DNA from: Candidatus Heimdallarchaeota archaeon
Lineage (GTDB): Archaea > Asgardarchaeota > Wukongarchaeia > Wukongarchaeales > JBHIFL01
NCBI GenBank assembly: GCA_046761065.1
Contig: JBHIFL010000023.1
Coordinates: 1-49,930, forward strand
DNA length: 49,930 nucleotides
Direction of reading: 5' to 3'
This document shows positions 41,008-49,426 of this stretch, one piece after another. The first letter of the stretch is position 1, and each line of letters begins with the position of its first letter. The notes under the pieces were generated by a model, which was not told where the DNA came from, searched no databases, and saw nothing but the letters and a program-made list of their open reading frames with translations. A program made the translations under genes and the position numbers.

Positions 41008-42099
41008 CTACGAGATTTCACAGGGATCTCTACGTAGGCATGTATAGATTAAGGCACCAATTGCAGTATCAATGATTGGAAGGCCCATGATAGTGCATGT
41101 ACTGAGAGGGCTAGCCTCCGCCTCATTTCTCAAAAGAGTACCAATAGAGAGGACATTTGAACTTTCCAGTCGCTCTTTAAGAGTGTTCCCGACCGAACTC
41201 TCAAGGCGTCGAGCAAGTTTCAGACTATCAAAGACGTGAGTGTGGAATTGGTCGACGAGGGAAGCTGCAAGAGCTTGTTTATTAGCATCGGCATAAATAA
41301 AGTGTTTTCTGTTTTTGATACTAAGGATGGATTCATTCACAATCTCTTGGTAATATGGAAGTGACATCGCATCAACGACGATGTCAGTATCTCTTCCTAG
41401 AGCTTCCTTAAGGTTTTCACAGGGGAGCAGGTCAACTTTATGATCGAGTTTTGCCTCGAACGTCCTCTTGAGGTAGTGTGTGACTCGTTCTCGAATGGAA
41501 GAGTACTCGCATTTCCTCGCAGCGACCATCCGGATGGTTTTCGGGGGCTTCCGTAACGCTGCCAAGGCAAAAACTACGGCAGTACCAATGGCTCCTATGC
41601 CCAATACAGACACAGAATACTCAGAGTCAGGCAATCCAATCGCTTCAATGCCAATTGCAACGCTGGATGCGGTTCGAAAGTCAGAGATGGCATCGCCACA
41701 CATGATGCTAACCAATTCCCCTGTGACATTGTCATATAGGCAAAAGAGGTTGTTCGATCGTCTTCGCCCTCGCTGTGGGTTTTTCTCATTAGCGCCGAAA
41801 GTTCGGACCCCTGAAAACCGCTCGCTTTCCCCTACCATTGTCCGAATCTTTGTTGGGTATTTTTCATCCTTTGAATTGACGTAAACAGCGACTTTATCGT
41901 AGACAAAGCGTCCTGGATGTTTCAATGCCTCCCTTGAGAGTTTATTAATTGTTTTAAAGGAGTAAATGCTTAATGGAAATCCCTTCTGGATTTCTTCGTG
42001 GGGGATGATGGTTACAGGCATTTCTTGACCTAATAAATCGAGTGTGTAGGGGTTTTTGAAACCTTTTAGATTATCTATTTTTTGCATTATGAAATCCAC
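41008..42099 (-). CDS. Divergent ornithine cyclodeaminase / mu-crystallin family protein
   Basis: N..NP..G, LYDNVTG, ISDFRTASS, VLGIGAIG Rossmann motif, C-terminal GLPIID. Confidence 0.75.
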   Translation of the reverse strand: MDFIMQKIDNLKGFKNPYTLDLLGQEMPVTIIPHEEIQKGFPLSIYSFKTINKLSREALKHPGRFVYDKVAVYVNSKDEKYPTKIRTMVGESERFSGVRTFGANEKNPQRGRRRSNNLFCLYDNVTGELVSIMCGDAISDFRTASSVAIGIEAIGLPDSEYSVSVLGIGAIGTAVVFALAALRKPPKTIRMVAARKCEYSSIRERVTHYLKRTFEAKLDHKVDLLPCENLKEALGRDTDIVVDAMSLPYYQEIVNESILSIKNRKHFIYADANKQALAASLVDQFHTHVFDSLKLARRLESSVGNTLKERLESSNVLSIGTLLRNEAEASPLSTCTIMGLPIIDTAIGALIYTCLRRDPCEIS

Positions 42100-43136
42100 T
42101 CCCCTTTCCTAATTGTTTCAATTTTTTCGAGCAACTTTCGTAGTGTATCAAACAAATCGCCAACGATCCCATAATCTGCAGCCTCAAAGATTGGTGCACT
42201 GGGATCTTTGTTAATAGCAACTATGTTTTGAGAATTTTTCACGCCTACTAAATGTTGGATTGCTCCCGAAATGCCACATGCTATGTAAATATCAGGTTTT
42301 ACAGCTTGCCCGGTTAATCCAATTTGATGGGTGGAAGAGATCCAACCAGCATCGACCGCGGCCCTTGTCGCACCAACCTCGGCTCCGAGAAGGTCGGCTA
42401 ATTTTTTTATCATTTTAAAGCCTTCAGGCCCGCCAACCCCTCGACCGCCGCCAACAATTATCTTAGCGTCTTCTAGACTTGTTTCATTCTTTTTTCTGAT
42501 TGTTTTGAGAATGTCTATAACAAGGTCGCTTTCTTCTAGGTCACCATTACAATGTATTATTTTACCTGTTCGTTTGGGATCCATATGTAATGGCTCAAAA
42601 ATTCCGTGTCGTACCGTAGCCATTTGGGGGTGACACTCAGGAGTGAAGATCGTCGCCATTATATCTCCACCAAAAGCGGGCCTAATCTGGTAGAGGACCC
42701 TGTCATAGCGTTTCCCGCTTTTTTTATCATGATAGTCTCCAATGTCAAGATCGGTACAATCAGCGGTAAGTCCTGTTTCTAATCTTGTGGCGATTCGAGG
42801 TGCCAAGTCTCTTCCGGTGGTATCGGCAACAAAAAGAACGATTTTGGGCTTTTCCATGCGTATGAGGCTGGTTACGGCTTTAGCGTAAGGGATTGTTGAA
42901 TAAAGTTTGAGTTTTTCATCATTTACCAAGTAGATTTTGTCAACACCATAGGTTATCAGTTCATGGGCCAATGGTTCGATATTGTAGCCGAGAAGCACCG
43001 CGGATAAGTCGACTTTACTTTTATCTGCCAATTGCCTTCCCTTAGCTATGAGTTCAAGAGTGGACTTGGTGAGTTTTTTGTTATGGTGGTTTGCGTATAC
43101 CCATATTCCATTATATTCGCGTTCCAACAATATCAC
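42087..43136 (-). CDS. etfA: Electron transfer flavoprotein subunit alpha
   Basis: GRDLAPR, GLTADCT, QIRPAFGG, PQMATVR, GGGRG, QIGLTG, GISGAIQH. Confidence 0.96.
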   Translation of the reverse strand: MILLEREYNGIWVYANHHNKKLTKSTLELIAKGRQLADKSKVDLSAVLLGYNIEPLAHELITYGVDKIYLVNDEKLKLYSTIPYAKAVTSLIRMEKPKIVLFVADTTGRDLAPRIATRLETGLTADCTDLDIGDYHDKKSGKRYDRVLYQIRPAFGGDIMATIFTPECHPQMATVRHGIFEPLHMDPKRTGKIIHCNGDLEESDLVIDILKTIRKKNETSLEDAKIIVGGGRGVGGPEGFKMIKKLADLLGAEVGATRAAVDAGWISSTHQIGLTGQAVKPDIYIACGISGAIQHLVGVKNSQNIVAINKDPSAPIFEAADYGIVGDLFDTLRKLLEKIETIRKGEWIS

Positions 43137-43940
43137 CTAAATCCCGAGATTTATACCTTCTTCGCCCAATTTTCTCAGTAAAATATCGAGAACTTCGTCT
43201 GTGGTTTCCCCTTCAATGATATACTTACTTCTCGGCGACATGGCCTTCGTAATTTTCATTAGCTTTGTTGGTGACCCTCCCAAGCCGATTTTAGTTTCAT
43301 CCGCTTTGATATCACTTGCTGACCATGTAGTTAGGCTGTGCTTTGTTGCTTTTAGGACGCCCGCAAAAGTGGTGTCGCGAGGTTCATTAGCCGTATTTGT
43401 AATTGTCAATAAAGCTGGAATTGGTACTCGGACTAGTTCATAACCACCCTCAAGCATGCGTTTCGCGTTTATGTAGTTTTTATGAAGTTCAAACTCTTCA
43501 ATGTACGTCAATTGCGGTATTCCAAGACGTTCAGCAACCCCGGGCCCAACTTGGCCTGTATTGCCGTCAGTGGCTTCCATCCCGCATAATATTAGATTGT
43601 AATAGCTGAGATTTTTGATCGCACAGCTTAAAGCGTAGGATGTAGCTAAAGTATCAGACCCAGCAAATTTTCTGTCGGAAAGCAAGATTGCTTTGTCTGC
43701 TCCCAGAGCTAGGGCCTCTCGGAGGGCATCTTCAGCTTTTGGGGGTCCCATCGAAAGAACAGTTATTGTGGCATCATATTGTTCTTTGAGGTTAAGTGCG
43801 GCCTCTAAGGCGTTTTTATCATAGGGATTGATTATTGACCTCCCTTTTTCCCGATCGAGGGTTCCATCTGGTTTTATTCCTGCGAAGCCATTAGGGTCAG
43901 GAACCTGCTTAATCAGAACGATAATGTGGAGTGGCATCAA
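43137..43940 (-). CDS. etfB: Electron transfer flavoprotein subunit beta
   Basis: KQVPD, INPYD, SMGPP, FAGSDTLATS, CGMEATDGNTGQVGP, GLGGSPT. Confidence 0.96.
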   Translation of the reverse strand: MMPLHIIVLIKQVPDPNGFAGIKPDGTLDREKGRSIINPYDKNALEAALNLKEQYDATITVLSMGPPKAEDALREALALGADKAILLSDRKFAGSDTLATSYALSCAIKNLSYYNLILCGMEATDGNTGQVGPGVAERLGIPQLTYIEEFELHKNYINAKRMLEGGYELVRVPIPALLTITNTANEPRDTTFAGVLKATKHSLTTWSASDIKADETKIGLGGSPTKLMKITKAMSPRSKYIIEGETTDEVLDILLRKLGEEGINLGI

Positions 43941-46507
43941 ATCCCTCTTTCATATTTTGTAAGTGCGACAATCTCAATCGGTACGACTTTCCTGTAGACC
44001 TCTTGTGGGCTTCGGAGGACTCCATCAACTGTAAGAAGGTCTTGAACACGTATTCCAAATAGACTTTCATTTTCTTGGAGTAAGGGCATCATTCGATCCC
44101 AATCATCAGCAGACAAGGGAACGAGTTTTCCGCCATTCAGCTGATCTTCTCTAACCGATCGTCGCGGATCCCGTAAATAGACTGCACTCGCCGCGGCGAG
44201 GGGCCATAAGTTCCCCCCATGATAGGGAGTTTCCTGCTCAACAAGTTCTCCTGCGTCATTGAAGCGAATACCATTCAAAATAGTGAAGCCGTGAGCTGCC
44301 ATGCATGATTCGCCCATATAATCCTTACAAGAGCCATTGATCACAGCAGTCGCACTTCCCACCGCATTGATCAAGGGCCTGTCGATTAAATCGCCCAGAA
44401 TAAAGGTTACTCCTCCTTTGGCGCCATACTCAAACGCTTTGCCCGCATCGCCATAAATAACTAGTTTTCCGGATTTGAAACAATAGGCAACTGAATCTTG
44501 AGCGCTTTCATGCACATAGAATTCTGGTCCATCAGCAAACGCAGCGAGACAATCGCCCACCCTACCGTATATATCAATTTTTACTTTTTTTCGCGTTACA
44601 AGCCCCGCCCCAAAGTTTCTGTGTCCCCTAAAATTATAGGCGATGAAATTTCGCCATCCGAGGTCGTGAGCTTTGTTAAGGAACTGACAGGTCCCATTAT
44701 CTCCTTGAGGTTCGAAATCAACAACATCAATAACTAGAATTTGATTAGTAATTGAAGGCCTTCTTAGTTTGTTTCGGGTTTCCCAGTTGATTAAACAATA
44801 TTGACTGTTTAAAGCCGTTTCTATGGGAGGAACAGATCTAAAAATGTTGTATAGGCCGTTTTCAATCAAATTAACGACATCATTTCTCTTTTTCGTTCCC
44901 GTGTTATATCGCCTATTAAGGAGAAGAGTTAACACCTCAATTGCAAGTGATTTCTCTGTATCACCCTTCACCGCTAATTGCCGGAGTTTTTTAACAAAAT
45001 AAGATAATTCACTGAAAGTCCAATTTTGAATACTCTGAGAAATATGACGATAGAGTTCCATGGGGCTTGTTACTTTTGTAAATTTTCTATCAATGTCTGG
45101 AAAAGCTCTTCCAGGATTAGAAATGGACTTGACTTTAGAGTGCTGCTGAAGGGTTGGGGTTGTGATGCGTTTTCCAAACTTATCGGTGCATGTGAGATTT
45201 TTCGACTCATCGAGTGAATATATGAACGCCCCTCCATCGGTGTAGCTTCCCCCTCTGGCATACCAATAGCGATCAGCTCTTGGATAGAATCGTTCATCAT
45301 CTCCTGCTAACTTTTCGAGCATCGCATCGATTGCTTGTTTCTCCGATGCGATGAGCCCAATTTGGACAGTACCTTCTTGAAGGGCAAACACTTGGGGTCT
45401 TAGCATGGACGTATCAGTTATCCCGATAAGCTGAACTTGCTTGGTATTAGGAATGTTTCGTGCTATAATGAAAAACCAGGGGCCGTCGGGGGTGCCATGA
45501 ATGTGTGTAGCTTGAATGGCACGATAAATGGGCTTTTTTTCGTCTGGTAGGATTGTAAAGTCTCGTTCCGTTGTTGGGGCAATGGCTTCGATGGCATATT
45601 CTAAGGGATAGCAATAAATACGGGTTAAAAGATCCCAGTAGAGAATAGCAACTTCTGTATCAGTTAAAAAGAGCGGAGATAAGTTTCTTTGGTTAAGGTA
45701 TTCTGTGATTGAATAGTAGTTTGCAAAATCACCGTTATGAACCAATGCATCATGTAATCCGATGAAGGGGTGGGCCCCCCCGGGATGCCAAATCGTACCT
45801 TTCGTAGGATATCTCTGATGGCCAATCCACACATACGCTTCTAAGTCTTCAATCTGATAATACTGGAGAACCTGCTCTGCATACCCGACAATCTTTAAAA
45901 CAAACATGTTTTTTCCATGCGAAACAACAAACGCTTTTTTATCCCCCAGTGAAGCATAGAACTTTTTGTTTAACGCAAAGCTGTTTCGATAAATGAACTC
46001 GTCCTCTGCTTGACTTGGAGCTAATTCTTCCAGGTGGTTTTTTTCTACAAACCGTTCTAATAAGTCCTCATCCACCCTGACAAAATATCTCCACACGTCT
46101 GGGGGTCTAACCTCCAGTCCAAGACGTCTATAATCTTGCAGGGTTGAAATTTTTTCAGTATAATCAAGATGTAGATATGGCTCAATGAATTCCATCTCAA
46201 CCTTCTTTCTGGAATTAGAATCAAGGTAAGCCACTTGCAACAGATAACTCTCTTCCAAAACCTTCGTGGGAACCCCCAATTGGTGATGAGAGAGTCCCAC
46301 TGCCGCGATGCCCCCACCTTTCCCATTGCCACGGTTGTGCATCTGCACCATTGGCTGGAACAGATACCTTCCTTTTAGCGGAACAGAACAAGCAACGCCA
46401 AGAACCCCGCAGCCACCCTCCGCCACCTCCTTATGAATCATGATGTCAGAAAGCGCGGGGGGGGACCTTTGCGGTGAGTAAAACGTTTGGGGAGGGAGTT
46501 TAAGCAT
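43937..46507 (-). CDS. Glutamate synthase-like subunit: Ntn glutamine amidotransferase domain fused to a C-terminal GXGXG beta-helix domain (GltB1+GltB3)
   Basis: EGGCGVLG, HNRGNG, GHQRYPT, AHPF, VHNGD, TDTEV, DGPW; C-terminal GRVGDCLA..AQD..GDAG..YGAKGG. Confidence 0.88.
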   Translation of the reverse strand: MLKLPPQTFYSPQRSPPALSDIMIHKEVAEGGCGVLGVACSVPLKGRYLFQPMVQMHNRGNGKGGGIAAVGLSHHQLGVPTKVLEESYLLQVAYLDSNSRKKVEMEFIEPYLHLDYTEKISTLQDYRRLGLEVRPPDVWRYFVRVDEDLLERFVEKNHLEELAPSQAEDEFIYRNSFALNKKFYASLGDKKAFVVSHGKNMFVLKIVGYAEQVLQYYQIEDLEAYVWIGHQRYPTKGTIWHPGGAHPFIGLHDALVHNGDFANYYSITEYLNQRNLSPLFLTDTEVAILYWDLLTRIYCYPLEYAIEAIAPTTERDFTILPDEKKPIYRAIQATHIHGTPDGPWFFIIARNIPNTKQVQLIGITDTSMLRPQVFALQEGTVQIGLIASEKQAIDAMLEKLAGDDERFYPRADRYWYARGGSYTDGGAFIYSLDESKNLTCTDKFGKRITTPTLQQHSKVKSISNPGRAFPDIDRKFTKVTSPMELYRHISQSIQNWTFSELSYFVKKLRQLAVKGDTEKSLAIEVLTLLLNRRYNTGTKKRNDVVNLIENGLYNIFRSVPPIETALNSQYCLINWETRNKLRRPSITNQILVIDVVDFEPQGDNGTCQFLNKAHDLGWRNFIAYNFRGHRNFGAGLVTRKKVKIDIYGRVGDCLAAFADGPEFYVHESAQDSVAYCFKSGKLVIYGDAGKAFEYGAKGGVTFILGDLIDRPLINAVGSATAVINGSCKDYMGESCMAAHGFTILNGIRFNDAGELVEQETPYHGGNLWPLAAASAVYLRDPRRSVREDQLNGGKLVPLSADDWDRMMPLLQENESLFGIRVQDLLTVDGVLRSPQEVYRKVVPIEIVALTKYERGI

Positions 46508-46511
46508 GATA

Positions 46512-48062
46512 TCACCTTAAATAGTCAAGATGAACAAGATGGTTGAATCGACCGTGCTTGAACTTGATCTCTCCCGTCGGACGGAGTTCTCGGATACTTA
46601 CTAAGTCGAGTCTTGTCAGAATGTAATGCCACTGGCGTTTCCACGAATGATATAGGTTGATAATCCGCTGAGCTCCCCAATCGGGGTCAATTAAATGCAT
46701 AAGAGCCAGATCAGTCGTAGCAATACCCGAGGGACAGCCTTTCCCTCGCTCACAATTCTCACATCGTTTGCATCCAAGTGCAACGAGTTCAGCCGTTCCA
46801 ATGATCACCCCATCCGCGCCCAAGGCAATGATTTTAGCCACATCAAAGGCGGTTCGTATTCCCCCGCTAGCCAGAATTACCATTTCATCCCTGACACCTT
46901 CGTTCACCAAATAATTATGAACGATTGGAATCGCATATTCGATTGGCAGGCCGATGTTCTTTTTGGCGATGTCAGGGGCAGCCCCGGTTCCTCCACAGCC
47001 GCCATCGATTTGTAAGATGTTGGCGTAGGCATAGTAGCTGCCAATTGCAACCATGTCCACATCAGTAGGGGTAGAAACCTTAACAGAAACCAGAGCTCTG
47101 GGATTGATGTCTTTCATTAATTGAACATGCCGATAATGATCTTCTACCGAATACACGTTGTGAAATGGAAATGGGGAAAACAAGCTGATATGGGGAACGA
47201 CCTCCCGGATTTGTGCAACCTCGGGGGTCACTTTATCGGCCAGTAAATGGCCGCCTAACCCCGGTTTAGCCCCTTGAGCATATTTCAAGACTATGATTCG
47301 TGCTCGTTGGATTGTTTCAGCGTTCACCCCAAAATGACCGGTCGCTACTTGGGTGATCACATGATCTTTGTAGGGGACTAACTCATCCGGATAGCCCCCT
47401 TCCCCCGTGCTTGTGAACGTACCCCAAGCTTTGGCCGCTTTAGCTCTCGCAAGCATTACGTTCAAGCTCACAGAACCGAAAGACATGTCTGCGCCATAAA
47501 CTGGGATGGGGATTTCTAGTTTTGCCCGTCCATCATTCCTTTTGTTCAGAACTATTGACGTATCGACGTATGTTTCATTAAACAGCTCAGTAACATCGAG
47601 TTTTTCTTCGTTCAATTCAAACTCAAAGCGGATTTTATCAAATCCTCCTCCTGAAGCTCCAATTCTATATTGGTAGTGTGGAGTTAGTCTGCCAGTTGTC
47701 GCTTGTTCCCAAGTGGATAAGATTAAATCAGCAGTCCATCGTAGATCGCCAAGAGCCAGATATTGGGAATTGAAGTCAAGCGTTAACGCGTTAGTAGGAC
47801 ATTCTTTCACGCAGCGTTTACAACTAGGTCCCAGGCATGAAGCCCTTGGATTACTTAAACGCAGATAGCTCACAGGCGTTTTAAACGCTTCATAATCAAT
47901 TGGCGCCGCTCCTATGTATTCGGGGCATAGTTCGGCACAAATCCCACATGCTATACATTTAGCCCTATCTAGGAGGACCTCATACTTTTCTATAGGAATT
48001 GGATATTTAGATGGGGCAACCTTTATTTTGGGTGTTTGCAAATGGAGTTGAGATTGTATCAT
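46512..48062 (-). CDS. Glutamate synthase FMN-binding subunit (GltB2) with N-terminal ferredoxin
   Basis: CIACGICAELCP, MSFGS, TGEGG, QVATGHFG, KYAQGAKPGLGG, IDGGCGGTGAAP, SGGIR, CKRCENCERGKGCP. Confidence 0.92.
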   Translation of the reverse strand: MIQSQLHLQTPKIKVAPSKYPIPIEKYEVLLDRAKCIACGICAELCPEYIGAAPIDYEAFKTPVSYLRLSNPRASCLGPSCKRCVKECPTNALTLDFNSQYLALGDLRWTADLILSTWEQATTGRLTPHYQYRIGASGGGFDKIRFEFELNEEKLDVTELFNETYVDTSIVLNKRNDGRAKLEIPIPVYGADMSFGSVSLNVMLARAKAAKAWGTFTSTGEGGYPDELVPYKDHVITQVATGHFGVNAETIQRARIIVLKYAQGAKPGLGGHLLADKVTPEVAQIREVVPHISLFSPFPFHNVYSVEDHYRHVQLMKDINPRALVSVKVSTPTDVDMVAIGSYYAYANILQIDGGCGGTGAAPDIAKKNIGLPIEYAIPIVHNYLVNEGVRDEMVILASGGIRTAFDVAKIIALGADGVIIGTAELVALGCKRCENCERGKGCPSGIATTDLALMHLIDPDWGAQRIINLYHSWKRQWHYILTRLDLVSIRELRPTGEIKFKHGRFNHLVHLDYLR

Positions 48063-49426
48063 CCTTGGCCACCGAAAATTTTCGCTTCGAGATCATCATA
48101 GAACATGGCTCGTCCAAGTTCGCCCCGCTGTCTTCTCACTTCCCGTAACCCCATTCCTCCCAGAACTTCTAATAATTGGTCTCGCCAAGCGGCTATCAAA
48201 TTAACTATTCTTTGAGCGGCCCACTCTACATCTTGCGGCTCTATTAGCAGCATACAGCTGTCGGAATGCTTATCCTCATAACAAACTCCACAGCCAAGGG
48301 CAATTTGATAAGCCAACCCAACAGAAACCGCATCAGCTCCAAGAATAATCGATTTAGGTACATGTGCGGCTTCCGCGATTCCCCCGCTAGAAATGAAAGT
48401 GATTTCATCTCTCATGTGTTTCGCAACTAGATGGGAATGAATCGAATGAATGGTGTTTGTAATATTCTCAGGAGTTTGCTCATGTACCTCATCATCATTA
48501 TACAAATGAATAATATCCGCACCCATTTTTGTCAAAGCTTCGGCGCATTCCCCAGATTTTTCATTATAAGGAACCCGAAAAGAAACTAAGACAGAACGAT
48601 TGGTTTCCTTGATTTGTTGAAGAGAATCTTTTAGTTCATTACCTTGGAGCTCGAGTTCAATGATCCTGGAAATTCGAATCAGGTCTTCAAATTCCTCTAT
48701 CTCATTAGGATGCATTCTCGGGATGAGATTCGCCTGATAAGGCATCAGATCGTCGGTATATCCCTTTGCATTTACAACCGCAAAAGTATTGAGTCTCGTC
48801 GCCGCTTTTGCTATAGTTAATTGAAGGGTTCTGTCGGACCTCGAAGGGAGCGGGGCATCTAAAATCATTGGGATTGGGATTTCGAACACTCTTGGAATAT
48901 CAGAAAGCAAGTTTCCGGCTTTATCGAACTCTAGGGATGCTAACTTTCTTCCCAAATCGACTGACGTTGAAATATATTCTCGCCCATGGATTCCATCTCT
49001 TGTTGGCCGAACGATCTCTGAGAAATCGAACCAAATGCTATCAAACCCATTCCCTGCAAACGACCCCCCATAGCCAGTTCCAGAAACCGGAACTCGCCCC
49101 GTTTCGGCTTCAAAATAGAGGGTCTTTATTCGTTCCGAGGTGAAATATGAGGTGCCCAATTTTTCAAATTCAGGATTGATCCCAATTGAAATAGCGCCTT
49201 TGGGGCATGCTAGAGCGCACAGGTGACATCCCCGGCATAGCTCATCAATTGGATCGGCCATTTGGCCATCTTTGCGGGTTCTATGCACTTCAAAGATACA
49301 GGCTTGAATGCACTCTTGAACGTTAACACAGTTATTATAGCGCTTGACTACGTATTTTGGCGGCAGCTTGATTTTTGCAGGGGTGTTTCTTACTTCAATA
49401 TGATACCTTTCAAAAAGTGCACCCAT
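48059..49426 (-). CDS. Ferredoxin plus degenerate glutamate-synthase FMN-barrel paralog
   Basis: CVNVQECIQAC, CRGCHLCALACP, SEIVRPTRDGIHGREYIST, SSGGI, LGADAV; lacks the MSxG, GEGG and GAKPG motifs. Confidence 0.85.
   Translation of the reverse strand: MGALFERYHIEVRNTPAKIKLPPKYVVKRYNNCVNVQECIQACIFEVHRTRKDGQMADPIDELCRGCHLCALACPKGAISIGINPEFEKLGTSYFTSERIKTLYFEAETGRVPVSGTGYGGSFAGNGFDSIWFDFSEIVRPTRDGIHGREYISTSVDLGRKLASLEFDKAGNLLSDIPRVFEIPIPMILDAPLPSRSDRTLQLTIAKAATRLNTFAVVNAKGYTDDLMPYQANLIPRMHPNEIEEFEDLIRISRIIELELQGNELKDSLQQIKETNRSVLVSFRVPYNEKSGECAEALTKMGADIIHLYNDDEVHEQTPENITNTIHSIHSHLVAKHMRDEITFISSGGIAEAAHVPKSIILGADAVSVGLAYQIALGCGVCYEDKHSDSCMLLIEPQDVEWAAQRIVNLIAAWRDQLLEVLGGMGLREVRRQRGELGRAMFYDDLEAKIFGGQG

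What the first reader, a model, noticed from the sequence alone, without database searches (positions are those of the whole stretch)
41008..49426. Six-gene operon coupling a split glutamate-synthase-like complex to EtfBA and an OCD-fold protein, without GltD
Seen: Fd-pseudoFMN subunit, Fd-FMN subunit, GATase-GXGXG subunit, etfB, etfA and an OCD-like gene are joined by overlaps or gaps of 0-4 nt (ATGA overlaps at 48059-62 and 43937-40). There is no NAD(P)H beta subunit (GltD) and no acyl-CoA dehydrogenase or FixCX, the usual ETF partners. EtfB has G.EA.DG.TGQVGP and EtfA has LTADCT..RPAFGG, resembling NADH-dependent bifurcating ETFs. Known: glutamate synthases take electrons from GltD or free ferredoxin. 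Inference: the ETF acts as the electron input, possibly bifurcating from NADH into the built-in ferredoxin domains and an imine-reducing branch. This would be an undescribed ETF-linked amidotransferase/imine reductase system, possibly running catabolically or making a product other than glutamate.
Basis: partly seen in the sequence, partly recalled or inferred. Interest (0 to 1): 0.78.

Follow-up and report, generated by a model that had tools for sequence, protein, structure and literature searches.

The report
Glutamate synthase with its own ETF
An Asgard (Hodarchaeota-like) archaeon encodes its only glutamate synthase, split into three iron-sulfur-rich pieces, in one tight operon with a dedicated two-FAD electron-transfer flavoprotein; the pairing recurs in several archaeal lineages, I found no paper on it, and it probably lets NADH drive nitrogen assimilation, while the sixth (OCD-like) gene is a local add-on.

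Summary
Six co-directional minus-strand genes are joined by overlaps or gaps of at most 4 nt: Fd+degenerate barrel (A), Fd+FMN barrel (B), GATase+GXGXG (C), EtfB, EtfA and an OCD-fold gene (F).

A-B-C is a widespread split glutamate synthase. It had more than 7000 homologues, and the gene order was the same in every complete locus examined. It is the only one in this genome. GATase and synthase motifs are conserved, and relatives place it beside glutamine synthetase.

EtfBA directly follows A-B-C in at least nine loci: Hodarchaeota, other Asgard archaea, Thermofilum, Thermoplasmatota and two unnamed metagenome contigs. Two separate EtfA lineages are involved.

The ETF is of the two-FAD type. 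Its five best solved relatives are all bifurcating ETFs, and the FAD motifs and both flavin-site arginines are kept. The genome's two other ETF pairs sit beside acyl-CoA dehydrogenases, and no classic gltD was found.

Best reading: ETF is the NADH input module. Bifurcation to ferredoxin is plausible but unproven.

The OCD-like gene is linked only here and in one close relative. Its homologues stand alone elsewhere, and it was not found in three other genomes with the ETF operon. The "imine-reducing branch" and "product other than glutamate" ideas are therefore not supported.

This scan had already noted the ETF-glutamate synthase pairing on other DNA. I found no paper on it.

The parts
48059..49426 (-). 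Subunit A (455 aa): an N-terminal ferredoxin domain plus a degenerate paralogue of the GltS FMN barrel. It probably fills the place of the central domain.
   Evidence: Pfam gives Glu_synthase 5.9e-13, Glu_syn_central 3.3e-5 and Fer4. A profile of A matches the GltB FMN-domain region and, weakly, the central region. Fully or almost fully conserved cysteines are C33x5C39x3C43 plus C64xxC67xxC70xxxC74, a 7Fe-ferredoxin-like pattern. C379/C382/C391 align to the GltB 3Fe-4S site. The catalytic motifs MSFGS, GEGG and QGAKPG are absent.
46512..48062 (-). Subunit B (516 aa): an N-terminal 2x[4Fe-4S] ferredoxin domain plus the catalytic FMN/synthase barrel.
   Evidence: Pfam Glu_synthase 3.1e-92. The best PDB hits are GltB and Fd-GltS, E 1e-41 to 1e-46. 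Invariant motifs are MSFGS, GEGGYP, KYAQGAKPGLGGHL, SPFPFH..YSVEDH and GGTGAAP. Eight ferredoxin cysteines (C36/39/42/46, C76/81/84/88) and a four-cysteine site C431/434/437/443 next to the FMN are also invariant.
43937..46507 (-). Subunit C (856 aa): a class II (Ntn) glutamine amidotransferase with a leader peptide before Cys33, an insert, and a C-terminal GXGXG beta-helix domain.
   Evidence: Pfam GXGXG scores 35 bits against a cut-off of 32.5, and GATase_6 also matches. Alignment to GlmS keeps the R, T, H, N-G and D positions. EGGCGV and VHNGDF are invariant, and HxRYPT and TDTE nearly so, in 39 homologues. A leader of at least 11 aa precedes the Cys in all of them. A possible alternative start is Met23, near 46441.
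43137..43940 (-). EtfB (267 aa; the ATG at 43937 gives 266 aa), the small ETF subunit, which carries the second (bifurcating-site) FAD motif.
   Evidence: Pfam ETF 9e-46. The best PDB hits are 5OL2, 6FAH, 7KOE, 4KPU and 7QH2, E 1e-46 to 1e-57, against 1e-14 to 1e-24 for one-FAD ETFs. ATDGNTGQVGP aligns with AIDGDTAQVGP.
42087..43136 (-). EtfA (349 aa), the large ETF subunit, without an N-terminal ferredoxin domain.
   Evidence: Pfam ETF plus ETF_alpha. The best PDB hits are 7KOE, 6FAH, 5OL2, 7QH2 and 4KPU, E 1e-71 to 1e-94. LTADCT, R152 in IRPAFGG and R258 in ATRAAVDAGW are kept. It falls in a 39-row EtfA clade (SH-aLRT 98) that holds every ferredoxin-less GltS-linked copy checked.
41008..42099 (-). 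F (359-363 aa): an OCD/mu-crystallin-fold NAD(P)-binding protein, a lineage-specific add-on translationally coupled to etfA.
   Evidence: Pfam OCD_Mu_crystall 2.5e-10. All NCBIfam equivalogs score far below their cut-offs. The GIGAIG Rossmann motif is present. The model has pLDDT 88.7 and its best PDB matches are SbnB and CmnK, TM 0.73-0.79 at 16% identity. It starts in a TAATG overlap with etfA.

Best explanation
A, B and C together form the organism's genuine glutamate synthase in a split, iron-sulfur-rich form.
- C hydrolyses glutamine at Cys33, after removal of a leader peptide.
- Ammonia passes to the FMN barrel of B, where 2-oxoglutarate is converted to 2-iminoglutarate and reduced to glutamate.
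- A is a non-catalytic paralogue of the barrel. It keeps Fe-S sites and, with the ferredoxin domains of A and B, forms an electron wire of up to six clusters.

EtfBA is the dedicated electron-input module and takes the role that GltD plays in bacteria. NADH reduces the FAD at the EtfA/EtfB interface, the mobile FAD of EtfA passes single electrons into the Fe-S wire, and they reach the FMN.

Shown here: gene content, conserved motifs, recurrent linkage, a dedicated ETF clade, and that this is the only GltS set found in the genome.

Inferred: physical complex formation, NADH as donor, and the electron path.

A further and less certain step (about 0.4) is that the ETF bifurcates. The exergonic reduction of 2-iminoglutarate would then pull a second electron from NADH onto free ferredoxin: 2 NADH + Fd(ox) + Gln + 2-OG gives 2 NAD+ + Fd(red) + 2 Glu.

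F is an NAD(P)-dependent amino- or imino-acid oxidoreductase of unknown substrate. It is co-expressed in this lineage only and is not part of the core machine.
For: A-B-C is a real and widespread unit.
- C has 7698 homologues with E <= 0.001.
- A, B and C occur in the same order wherever the contig reaches far enough, in the 31 loci and the 11.

It is a glutamate synthase.
- B keeps the synthase motifs and is closest to solved GltB and Fd-GltS.
- C keeps the glutaminase residues, and its Cys is invariant in 39 homologues.
- It is the only Glu_synthase set found in this 91%-complete genome, which also has two glnA genes and one gdh.
- glnA lies directly upstream in L054 and on a Zixibacteria contig. 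AsnC-type regulators lie upstream in L001, L002 and L063.

The ETF linkage recurs. EtfBA directly follows C here and in:
- L062 (Hodarchaeota),
- L002 and L066 (unnamed metagenome contigs),
- L003 (Promethearchaeota),
- L063 (Thermofilum),
- L018 (Thermoplasmatota),
- L054 and L057 (another Asgard family).
Thirteen EtfA homologues lie on contigs whose length equals that of a contig carrying a C homologue.

The ETF is dedicated.
- The ferredoxin-less linked EtfA copies form one clade (SH-aLRT 98). Its sister clade is Bcd-type (L064).
- L018, L054 and L057 use a separate ferredoxin-fused EtfA clade (SH-aLRT 96), and there the fused A-B lacks ferredoxin domains.
- Five Asgard genomes with A-B-C but no adjacent ETF have only EtfA of <= 47% identity.
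- This genome's other two etfBA pairs each sit beside an acyl-CoA dehydrogenase.

The ETF is of the two-FAD type.
- The five best solved relatives of both subunits are all bifurcating ETFs.
- Both flavin-site arginines are kept (their roles are described in PMC8958531).

No classic gltD was found. The only Fer4_20 hit in the genome lies in an 846-aa protein fused to NuoG-like domains on another contig.

Complex prediction of B with EtfB and EtfA residues 193-346 gave weak support.
- The score was 0.54 and the best of three controls 0.00.
- The runs agreed in at least 72% of contacts, and the partner's pLDDT was at least 75.
- In the tool's calibration, 58 of 80 solved complexes and 2 of 110 mismatched pairs reached the mark. 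At 0.60 or under, only 7 of those 80 solved complexes did, and both passing mismatches fell there too.

Thermodynamics, from my own knowledge: the 2-OG+NH4+/Glu couple lies near -0.12 to -0.14 V and glutamine hydrolysis adds driving force. The acceptor is therefore as positive as those of known bifurcating ETF systems.
Against: - No biochemical data exist and no paper was found.
- Most A-B-C operons, including close relatives (L004, L013 and the Bathyarchaeia loci), lack an ETF. The core enzyme therefore works with another donor, presumably ferredoxin, and an ETF is not obligatory.
- A two-FAD ETF is not proof of bifurcation. The acrylyl-CoA reductase-EtfAB of C. propionicum has two FADs but appears not to bifurcate (PMC5861303).
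- The whole archaeal EtfA clade carries an insert of about 10 residues just before RPAFGG, close to the bifurcating FAD. Its effect on ferredoxin access is unknown.
- One GltS-linked subclade (P0147, P0149, P0151, P0153, P0154, P0163) has Val in place of the bifurcating-site Arg.
- The complex prediction is only weak support, and it used B without A and C.
- The fused GltD-like protein on contig C13 cannot be excluded as a donor.
- The genome is a MAG with 8.2% estimated contamination.
Confidence: 0.68

Rival explanations
1. The ETF feeds the glutamate synthase from NADH without bifurcation. Both electrons of NADH go through the two FADs and the Fe-S wire to the FMN. The ETF would be a plain replacement for GltD, as in the non-bifurcating acrylyl-CoA reductase-EtfAB.
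For: - The linkage evidence is the same as for the main reading.
- PMC5861303 documents a two-FAD ETF complex that appears not to bifurcate.
- The archaeal clade has an insert next to the bifurcating-FAD segment.
- A GltS-linked subclade has lost the bifurcating-site Arg.
- The window's EtfA has no ferredoxin domain to relay electrons to external ferredoxin.
Against: - The window copy keeps every two-FAD motif and both arginines.
- The second type of GltS-linked ETF (L018, L054, L057) carries the N-terminal ferredoxin domain. In CarE and LctC that domain relays electrons between external ferredoxin and the bifurcating FAD (PMC9232219).
- The free-energy gap between NADH and the acceptor is large enough to be worth conserving.
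Confidence: 0.3
2. The adjacency is co-regulation only. A-B-C is a ferredoxin-dependent glutamate synthase that uses free reduced ferredoxin, like its many ETF-less relatives. The EtfBA next to it serves another enzyme, for example an acyl-CoA dehydrogenase or F.
For: - Most A-B-C operons have no ETF.
- A and B carry their own ferredoxin domains, which could accept electrons from soluble ferredoxin.
- The sister EtfA clade is Bcd-linked.
Against: - EtfBA follows C directly, with overlapping or abutting codons, in at least nine loci (several archaeal lineages plus two unnamed metagenome contigs) and with two different EtfA clades.
- None of those loci showed an acyl-CoA dehydrogenase, Ldh or FixCX gene.
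- The dedicated clade was not found in five genomes whose A-B-C lacks an adjacent ETF.
- This genome's acyl-CoA dehydrogenases each have their own etfBA pair.
- F was not found in other genomes that carry the ETF operon.
Confidence: 0.12
3. This is the first reader's version: a six-subunit system in which the OCD-fold protein is an integral imine-reducing or opine-type branch, making or degrading something other than glutamate.
For: - F is translationally coupled to etfA (TAATG) here and in L062.
- The fold is closest to SbnB and CmnK, which release 2-oxoglutarate from an N-substituted glutamate.
Against: - F is linked only in two closely related genomes.
- An 81%-identical homologue stands alone (L060).
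- Homologues at 31-36% identity lie beside unrelated amino-acid genes.
- F was not found in G052, G108 or G112, which carry the ETF operon.
- The GltS catalytic motifs are fully canonical.
- All members of the fold family match F about equally well (TM 0.66-0.73), so SbnB-like chemistry is not singled out.
Confidence: 0.05

Closest known systems
NADPH-glutamate synthase GltB/GltD (Azospirillum brasilense 1EA0, 2VDC, 6S6S; Bacillus 7MFM) and ferredoxin-glutamate synthase (Synechocystis 1LLW/1OFD)
   Same: It has the same four building blocks: an Ntn glutaminase, a second barrel in the place of the central domain, an FMN synthase barrel with an adjacent Fe-S cluster, and a GXGXG beta-helix. B matches the FMN domain of these entries at E 1e-41 to 1e-46 and keeps the synthase motifs.
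   Different: - It is split into three genes. GATase and GXGXG are on one chain, separated by a long insert.
- The glutaminase resembles PurF and GlmS rather than GltB and has a leader peptide before the Cys.
- A and B each carry an N-terminal ferredoxin domain.
- The FMN-proximal site in B has four cysteines rather than three, while A keeps a three-cysteine site.
- There is no GltD. An EtfBA pair follows instead.
Bifurcating ETF complexes: Bcd-EtfAB (5OL2, 4KPU), CarCDE (6FAH), Ldh-EtfAB/LctBCD (7QH2), EtfABCX/FixABCX (7KOE)
   Same: EtfA and EtfB are closest to exactly these five entries. They keep the second-FAD motifs and both flavin-site arginines. As in those systems, the ETF genes sit in one operon with the oxidoreductase that reduces a relatively high-potential acceptor. 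As in EtfABCX, the electron acceptor next to the ETF would be an Fe-S ferredoxin-type module.
   Different: The partner is a glutamate synthase, not an acyl-CoA dehydrogenase, lactate dehydrogenase or quinone reductase. I found no paper describing such a partner. The clade has an insert of about 10 residues before RPAFGG.
Archaeal split glutamate synthase genes (separate domain ORFs noted in reviews, e.g. PMC8097209)
   Same: Individual GltS domains are encoded as separate ORFs in Archaea, with a ferredoxin domain fused to the FMN subunit.
   Different: Here GATase and GXGXG are fused, a second ferredoxin-barrel paralogue is present, and an ETF is attached. According to that review the archaeal forms are known only as ORFs.
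OCD/mu-crystallin family: SbnB (4MP6, 4M54), CmnK (7CXS), archaeal alanine dehydrogenase (1OMO), Pyr2C reductase (6T3E), iminosuccinate reductase BhcD (6RQA)
   Same: F has the same two-domain fold with a Rossmann NAD(P) site (TM 0.66-0.79). The family R-T-A motif is present as RTASS (R138 invariant, T139 nearly so), together with GxGxxG.
   Different: Identity is only 13-17%. Every NCBIfam equivalog scores far below its cut-off. F belongs to a very small branch: four clusters at 31-36% identity among 1.84 billion representatives. The substrate is unknown.

Membership tests
Glutamate synthase (GltS alpha-type machinery) | FMN-binding synthase barrel (PF01645) with the 2-oxoglutarate/FMN motifs | tested here: met
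   B scores 310 bits on PF01645 against a cut-off of 20.4. It aligns to GltB residues 868-1165. The motifs are invariant in 16 homologues.
Glutamate synthase (GltS alpha-type machinery) | Class II (Ntn) glutaminase with a catalytic N-terminal Cys and Gln-binding R, N-G and D residues | tested here: met
   EGGCGV and VHNGDF are invariant in 39 homologues, and HxRYPT and TDTE are conserved with rare substitutions. The Cys lies at residue 33, so a leader peptide must be removed; that was not tested. The Pfam GATase_6 match is below its cut-off (21.6 against 27).
Glutamate synthase (GltS alpha-type machinery) | Fe-S cluster next to the FMN (three Cys, [3Fe-4S] in GltB) | tested here: met
   B has invariant C431/C434/C437/C443 at that position: four Cys, so possibly a [4Fe-4S] cluster. 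A has three Cys (C379/C382/C391) aligned to the GltB site. The cluster type cannot be determined from sequence.
Glutamate synthase (GltS alpha-type machinery) | C-terminal GXGXG beta-helix domain | tested here: met
   PF01493 scores 35.0 bits against a cut-off of 32.5 on C residues 631-733.
Glutamate synthase (GltS alpha-type machinery) | Central domain | tested here: inconclusive
   A matches Glu_syn_central at 23.9 bits against a cut-off of 22.8, but it matches the FMN domain better. The fused A-B of L054 matches Glu_syn_central at 1.8e-11.
Glutamate synthase (GltS alpha-type machinery) | Electron donor is GltD (NAD(P)H) or free ferredoxin | tested here: not met
   There is no GltD in the window. 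The only Fer4_20 domain in the genome is in an 846-aa protein fused to NuoG-like domains on contig C13. Use of free ferredoxin is not testable here.
Glutamate synthase (GltS alpha-type machinery) | Catalyses Gln + 2-OG + 2e- to 2 Glu | not testable with these tools
   This needs an enzyme assay.
Two-FAD (bifurcating-type, group 2) ETF | EtfB binds a second FAD instead of AMP (DGxTxQVGP-type motif) | tested here: met
   ATDGNTGQVGP aligns with AIDGDTAQVGP of 5OL2 and 6FAH. Actual cofactor content was not measured.
Two-FAD (bifurcating-type, group 2) ETF | EtfA segment that contacts the bifurcating FAD, with its conserved Arg (R165 in R. palustris ETF), and the Arg of the electron-transfer site (R273) | tested here: met
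   R152 in IRPAFGG and R258 in ATRAAVDAGW are kept. Their roles are described in PMC8958531. Equating R152 with R165 rests on the spacing (106 against 108 residues) and on my own knowledge.
Two-FAD (bifurcating-type, group 2) ETF | Closest relatives are experimentally bifurcating ETFs rather than one-FAD ETFs | tested here: met
   The top five PDB hits for both subunits are 5OL2, 6FAH, 7KOE, 4KPU and 7QH2. One-FAD ETFs score 20 to 50 orders of magnitude worse.
Two-FAD (bifurcating-type, group 2) ETF | NADH-dependent ferredoxin reduction coupled to reduction of a high-potential acceptor | not testable with these tools
   This needs an assay. Sequence alone is not sufficient (the C. propionicum case, PMC5861303).
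OCD/mu-crystallin family | PF02423 domain, Rossmann GxGxxG and the two-domain fold | tested here: met
   PF02423 scores 40.3 bits against a cut-off of 24. GIGAIG is present. The model has pLDDT 88.7 and matches 46 OCD-family chains at E below 1e-11.
SbnB / archaeal AlaDH / Pyr2C reductase / BhcD (specific OCD-family enzymes) | Score above the NCBIfam equivalog cut-off | tested here: not met
   Scores against cut-offs: SbnB family 53 against 327, ala_DH_arch 25 against 409, the Pyr2C/Pip2C reductase model 29 against 322, BhcD 21 against 500.

The most novel reading that the evidence does not exclude
The five-gene core encodes an electron-bifurcating glutamate synthase. This would be a new class of flavin-based bifurcating enzyme in which nitrogen assimilation (Gln + 2-oxoglutarate to 2 Glu) is the exergonic branch that lets NADH reduce ferredoxin. 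In the window-type form, the ferredoxin domains built into A and B would play the part that FixX/EtfX plays in EtfABCX. In Hodarchaeota-like archaea an SbnB-like dehydrogenase has been recruited to the same transcript and may link a further amino-acid or 2-oxoglutarate reaction to it.
Probability: 0.33. Interest if true: 0.85.

Novelty: new variant of a known kind. Interest (0 to 1): 0.66.

Why it matters
Glutamate synthase is the main entry point of nitrogen into biomass, and only two kinds of electron input are established for it: GltD with NAD(P)H, and free ferredoxin. A dedicated ETF would be a third kind. It would also give bifurcating-type ETFs a partner outside acyl-CoA, lactate and quinone chemistry.

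If the complex bifurcates, energy-limited anaerobic archaea, including relatives of the eukaryotic ancestor, would regain low-potential ferredoxin every time they assimilate nitrogen. That would change redox and energy budgets in metabolic models of Asgard, Thermoproteota and Thermoplasmatota.

The three-piece core, with up to six Fe-S sites, is itself biochemically uncharacterised although it has thousands of homologues. The idea can be tested directly by heterologous expression and anaerobic assays.

Tried and rejected
- Literature. Nine full-text searches were run; five sought an ETF-glutamate synthase link and found no paper on one. The Hodarchaeales culture preprint mentions ETF only with a quinone oxidoreductase.
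- Rfam. The whole window gave no hit at gathering threshold.
There are therefore no expression or co-transcription data, and read laying was not used.
- F as a core subunit: rejected.
- An ETF-specific insert in EtfA: rejected. The insert of about 10 residues before RPAFGG is shared by Bcd-linked and stand-alone members of the same archaeal clade.
- A classic gltD elsewhere in the genome: not found. There is a single Fer4_20 hit, in a fused 846-aa protein.
- A gene conserved after C in ETF-less A-B-C loci: none was seen. The genes there were DsrE/ThiI, phosphoesterase or MoCF-type, and in one Chloroflexi locus a ferredoxin-reductase-like gene.
- The 'complementary placement' idea, that the ferredoxin domain on EtfA in L018, L054 and L057 replaces those of A and B as a wire to the FMN. 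I toned this down. In LctC and CarE that domain serves the low-potential branch to external ferredoxin (PMC9232219). It therefore argues for bifurcation in those operons rather than for a wire.
- No complex prediction was run with A in place of B; only one job was allowed.

Full report
**Observation.** The minus strand of 41008-49426 carries six ORFs.
- A, 48059-49426, 455 aa: a ferredoxin domain plus a weak Glu_synthase/Glu_syn_central barrel.
- B, 46512-48062, 516 aa: a ferredoxin domain plus Glu_synthase at 3e-92.
- C, 43937-46507, 856 aa: class II GATase plus GXGXG.
- D, 43137-43940: EtfB.
- E, 42087-43136: EtfA.
- F, 41008-42099: OCD/mu-crystallin.

A and B overlap by ATGA. B and C are 4 nt apart. 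D and E abut. Two details need correcting. The C/D junction reads TTGATG, not ATGA. F most likely starts at the ATG at 42087, in a TAATG overlap with the etfA stop. The rest of the window holds no GltD, acyl-CoA dehydrogenase or FixCX gene. The convergent neighbours are CBS- and CGL-type genes and a carboxyl transferase.

**Organism.** The closest homologues of C and EtfA come from Asgard MAGs. EtfA is 87% identical to a 'Candidatus Hodarchaeota' protein, and C is 87% identical to a partial 'Heimdallarchaeota' protein. The genome is a MAG of 4.4 Mb in 234 contigs, 91% complete with 8.2% estimated contamination.

**A-B-C is a widespread split glutamate synthase.**
- C has 7698 homologues with E <= 0.001. 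They come from Asgard archaea, Bathyarchaeia, Thermoproteota and Thermoplasmatota, and at 47-56% identity from Desulfobacterota, Chloroflexota, Actinomycetota and others.
- In 31 loci from public genomes and 11 from Asgard species genomes, A, B and C occur in the same order wherever the contig is long enough to show them.
- B is closest to the FMN domain of solved GltB and Fd-GltS (E 1e-41 to 1e-46). MSFGS, GEGGYP, KYAQGAKPGLGGHL, SPFPFH..YSVEDH and GGTGAAP are invariant in it. So are eight ferredoxin-domain cysteines and a four-cysteine site next to the FMN, where GltB has three.
- In C, EGGCGV and VHNGDF are invariant in 39 homologues, and HxRYPT, (A/S)HPF and TDTE are conserved with rare substitutions. 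These are the glutaminase positions of GlmS. The catalytic Cys always follows a leader of at least 11 residues, 32 here. Processing as in B. subtilis PurF (my own knowledge) is therefore implied.
- A is a non-catalytic paralogue of the FMN barrel. It keeps three cysteines at the GltB 3Fe-4S position and has a 7Fe-type ferredoxin pattern, C33x5C39x3C43 plus C64xxC67xxC70xxxC74. It looks like an electron-transfer and scaffold subunit rather than a dead domain.

**It is this organism's glutamate synthase.** The operon is the only significant Glu_synthase hit in the genome, which also has two glutamine synthetase genes and one glutamate dehydrogenase gene. In relatives, glnA lies directly upstream (L054; a Zixibacteria contig). 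AsnC/Lrp-type regulators are frequent upstream neighbours. A glutamine-dependent NAD synthase follows in L066. Nothing points to a product other than glutamate.

**The ETF linkage is recurrent and specific.** EtfB-EtfA directly follows C in:
- the window;
- L062 (Hodarchaeota);
- L002 (a JGI contig) and L066 (a JGI contig);
- L003, the same contig as L049 (Promethearchaeota);
- L063 (Thermofilum);
- L018 (Thermoplasmatota);
- L054 and L057 (another Asgard family).

In a sample of 151 Asgard species genomes, 12 have A-B-C and 4 of those have the adjacent ETF. Thirteen close EtfA homologues lie on contigs whose length equals that of a contig carrying a C homologue; three of these were verified.

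An EtfA tree puts all ferredoxin-less linked copies in one 39-row clade (SH-aLRT 98). Its sister group is a classical ACAD-EtfBA set with beta-oxidation genes (L064). A further subclade stands alone (L065).

L018, L054 and L057 form a separate clade (SH-aLRT 96). Their EtfA carries an N-terminal ferredoxin domain with two CxxCxxCxxxC motifs. In those loci A and B are fused into one chain of at least 840 aa (627 aa seen in L057, where the contig is cut); no ferredoxin-type cysteine motif was seen at its start, and Pfam found no Fer4 domain in the L054 copy. Two ETF lineages are thus attached to two forms of the enzyme.

Five Asgard genomes whose A-B-C lacks an adjacent ETF have only EtfA of <= 47% identity. 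The dedicated clade is therefore present only where it is linked. This genome's two other etfBA pairs each sit beside an acyl-CoA dehydrogenase, and one of them also beside an HdrD-like membrane Fe-S protein.

**Type of ETF.** For both subunits the five best solved relatives are the bifurcating ETFs 5OL2, 6FAH, 7KOE, 4KPU and 7QH2. One-FAD ETFs score far lower. ATDGNTGQVGP in EtfB, and LTADCT and IRPAFGG in EtfA, are kept. So are the two arginines, R152 and R258, that are the only charged residues near the bifurcating and electron-transfer flavins (PMC8958531).

There are caveats.
- A two-FAD ETF need not bifurcate (C. propionicum, PMC5861303).
- The whole archaeal clade, including its Bcd-linked members, has an insert of about 10 residues just before RPAFGG.
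- One GltS-linked subclade, which includes L066, has Val at the bifurcating-site Arg.
- In LctC and CarE the EtfA ferredoxin domain relays electrons between external ferredoxin and the bifurcating FAD (PMC9232219). Its presence in the L018/L054/L057 type therefore argues for bifurcation there.

**Donor alternatives.** The only GltD-like (Fer4_20) domain in the genome lies in an 846-aa protein with 2Fe-2S, NuoG-like and Pyr_redox_2 domains on contig C13. This is not a classic gltD, but it cannot be excluded as a donor. A Chloroflexi locus (L016) has a ferredoxin-reductase-like flavoprotein after a fused A-B and C. The electron input of this enzyme family therefore looks modular.

**Complex prediction.** B was folded with EtfB and the mobile domain of EtfA (residues 193-346). 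The result was weak support.
- The score was 0.54 in three runs, and the best of three controls was 0.00.
- The runs agreed in at least 72% of contacts, and the partner's pLDDT was at least 75.
- In the tool's calibration, 58 of 80 solved complexes and 2 of 110 mismatched pairs reached the mark. At 0.60 or below, only 7 of those 80 did, and both mismatches that passed fell there too.
- I treat this as compatible with binding, not as proof. A and C were absent from the job.

**The OCD-like gene F.**
- F has the OCD/mu-crystallin fold (model pLDDT 88.7). Its best matches are SbnB and CmnK at TM 0.73-0.79, but 46 chains of the family match almost as well, at 12-18% identity. It has a GIGAIG Rossmann motif.
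- Every specific NCBIfam model scores far below its cut-off.
- The family is tiny. There are three other clusters at 68-80% identity among 5.8 billion clusters. Four more lie at 31-36% among 1.84 billion representatives.
- F follows etfA with the same 1-nt overlap only in L062, a close relative.
- The 80%-identical homologue in L060 stands alone near acyl-CoA carboxylase genes. The window and L062 also have a carboxyl transferase nearby.
- The distant homologues lie beside a Peptidase_C26/GATase gene or near an aminotransferase and a DAO-type oxidase.
- F was not found with this query in G052, G108 or G112, which carry the ETF operon and are 91-100% complete.
- F is therefore a lineage-specific add-on. 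It is probably an NAD(P)-dependent amino- or imino-acid oxidoreductase that is co-expressed with nitrogen assimilation, and not a sixth subunit.

**Mechanism proposed.** NADH reduces the FAD at the EtfA/EtfB interface. The FAD of the mobile EtfA domain passes single electrons into the Fe-S chain of A and B, and from there to the FMN of B. The FMN reduces 2-iminoglutarate, which forms from 2-oxoglutarate and the ammonia released by C. The 2-OG+NH4+/Glu couple lies near -0.12 to -0.14 V, and glutamine hydrolysis adds driving force (my own knowledge). The acceptor is therefore as positive as those of known bifurcating ETF systems, and coupled ferredoxin reduction is thermodynamically feasible. 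I put ETF as the dedicated input at about 0.68, and true bifurcation at about 0.33-0.4.

**Novelty.** I found no paper that links ETF and glutamate synthase. A 2021 review describes the archaeal split forms only as ORFs (PMC8097209). This scan has noted the same pairing several times on other genomes, so it is not unique to this window. What this window adds:
- the three-piece form with built-in ferredoxin domains;
- the Fe-S inventory of A and B;
- the finding that the dedicated ETF clade was not seen in five genomes whose A-B-C lacks an adjacent ETF;
- the assessment of the OCD-like gene.

I class it as a new variant of known kinds: glutamate synthase with a new input module, and a two-FAD ETF with a new partner.

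Noticed in passing
L018:1128-8313; L054:587-9104; L057:3-6517: This is a second architecture of the ETF-linked enzyme. A and B are fused into one chain of at least 840 aa (L057 is cut by the contig end), with no ferredoxin-type cysteine motif seen at its start. EtfA carries an N-terminal ferredoxin domain with two CxxCxxCxxxC motifs. In L054 glnA lies directly upstream.
   Followed up: partly
L016:764-7366: A Chloroflexi locus has a fused A-B and C followed by a ferredoxin-reductase-like flavoprotein (Pyr_redox_2 plus Reductase_C). It may be yet another NAD(P)H input module for this enzyme family.
   Followed up: no
L066:8941-10026 and proteins P0147, P0149, P0151, P0153, P0154, P0163: A subclade of GltS-linked EtfA has Val in place of the conserved Arg next to the bifurcating FAD (VVPAFGG, IVPAFSG). 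The second FAD or bifurcation may have been lost there.
   Followed up: partly
window:42087-43136 (EtfA residues about 133-150): An insert of about 10 residues (GDYxDKxSGxxY) lies between LTADCT and RPAFGG. The whole archaeal EtfA clade shares it, including Bcd-linked members. It is absent from the bacterial ETFs and the ferredoxin-fused archaeal EtfAs in the alignment. Its function is unknown.
   Followed up: partly
L019:6781-20110: A Deltaproteobacteria MAG contig carries two complete A-B-C sets in tandem, about 4 kb apart.
   Followed up: no
G000:C13:60190-62730 (L041:8191-10731): This 846-aa protein fuses 2Fe-2S, NuoG-like 4Fe-4S, Fer4, a GltD-like Fer4_20 domain, Pyr_redox_2 and DUF7508. 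It is the only GltD-like domain in the genome. It could be an Nfn/Bfu-type or hydrogenase-associated NAD(P)H module.
   Followed up: partly
G000:C27:8350-13738 (L040): The genome's third etfBA pair lies between an acyl-CoA dehydrogenase and a 671-aa membrane protein with NarI-like, Fer4 and CCG (HdrD-like) domains. This layout is typical of ETF:quinone or membrane oxidoreductases of syntrophs.
   Followed up: no
window:37847-40746: A cystathionine beta-synthase-like gene (PALP plus CBS) and a cystathionine gamma-lyase-like gene lie convergent to the operon. First-reader notes flag two in-frame insertions in the CGL gene. I did not examine them.
   Followed up: no
window:35315-36931; L062:7052-8659; L060:5112-7215: Acyl-CoA carboxylase genes (carboxyl transferase, or biotin carboxylase with BCCP) lie within a few kb of the OCD-like gene in all three loci that carry it. 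The original neighbourhood of F may have been there rather than with the ETF operon.
   Followed up: partly
window:46441-46507: The first 22 codons of C are poorly conserved, and a Met at residue 23 could be the true start. In every homologue the catalytic Cys follows a leader of at least 11 residues, which implies propeptide removal.
   Followed up: partly
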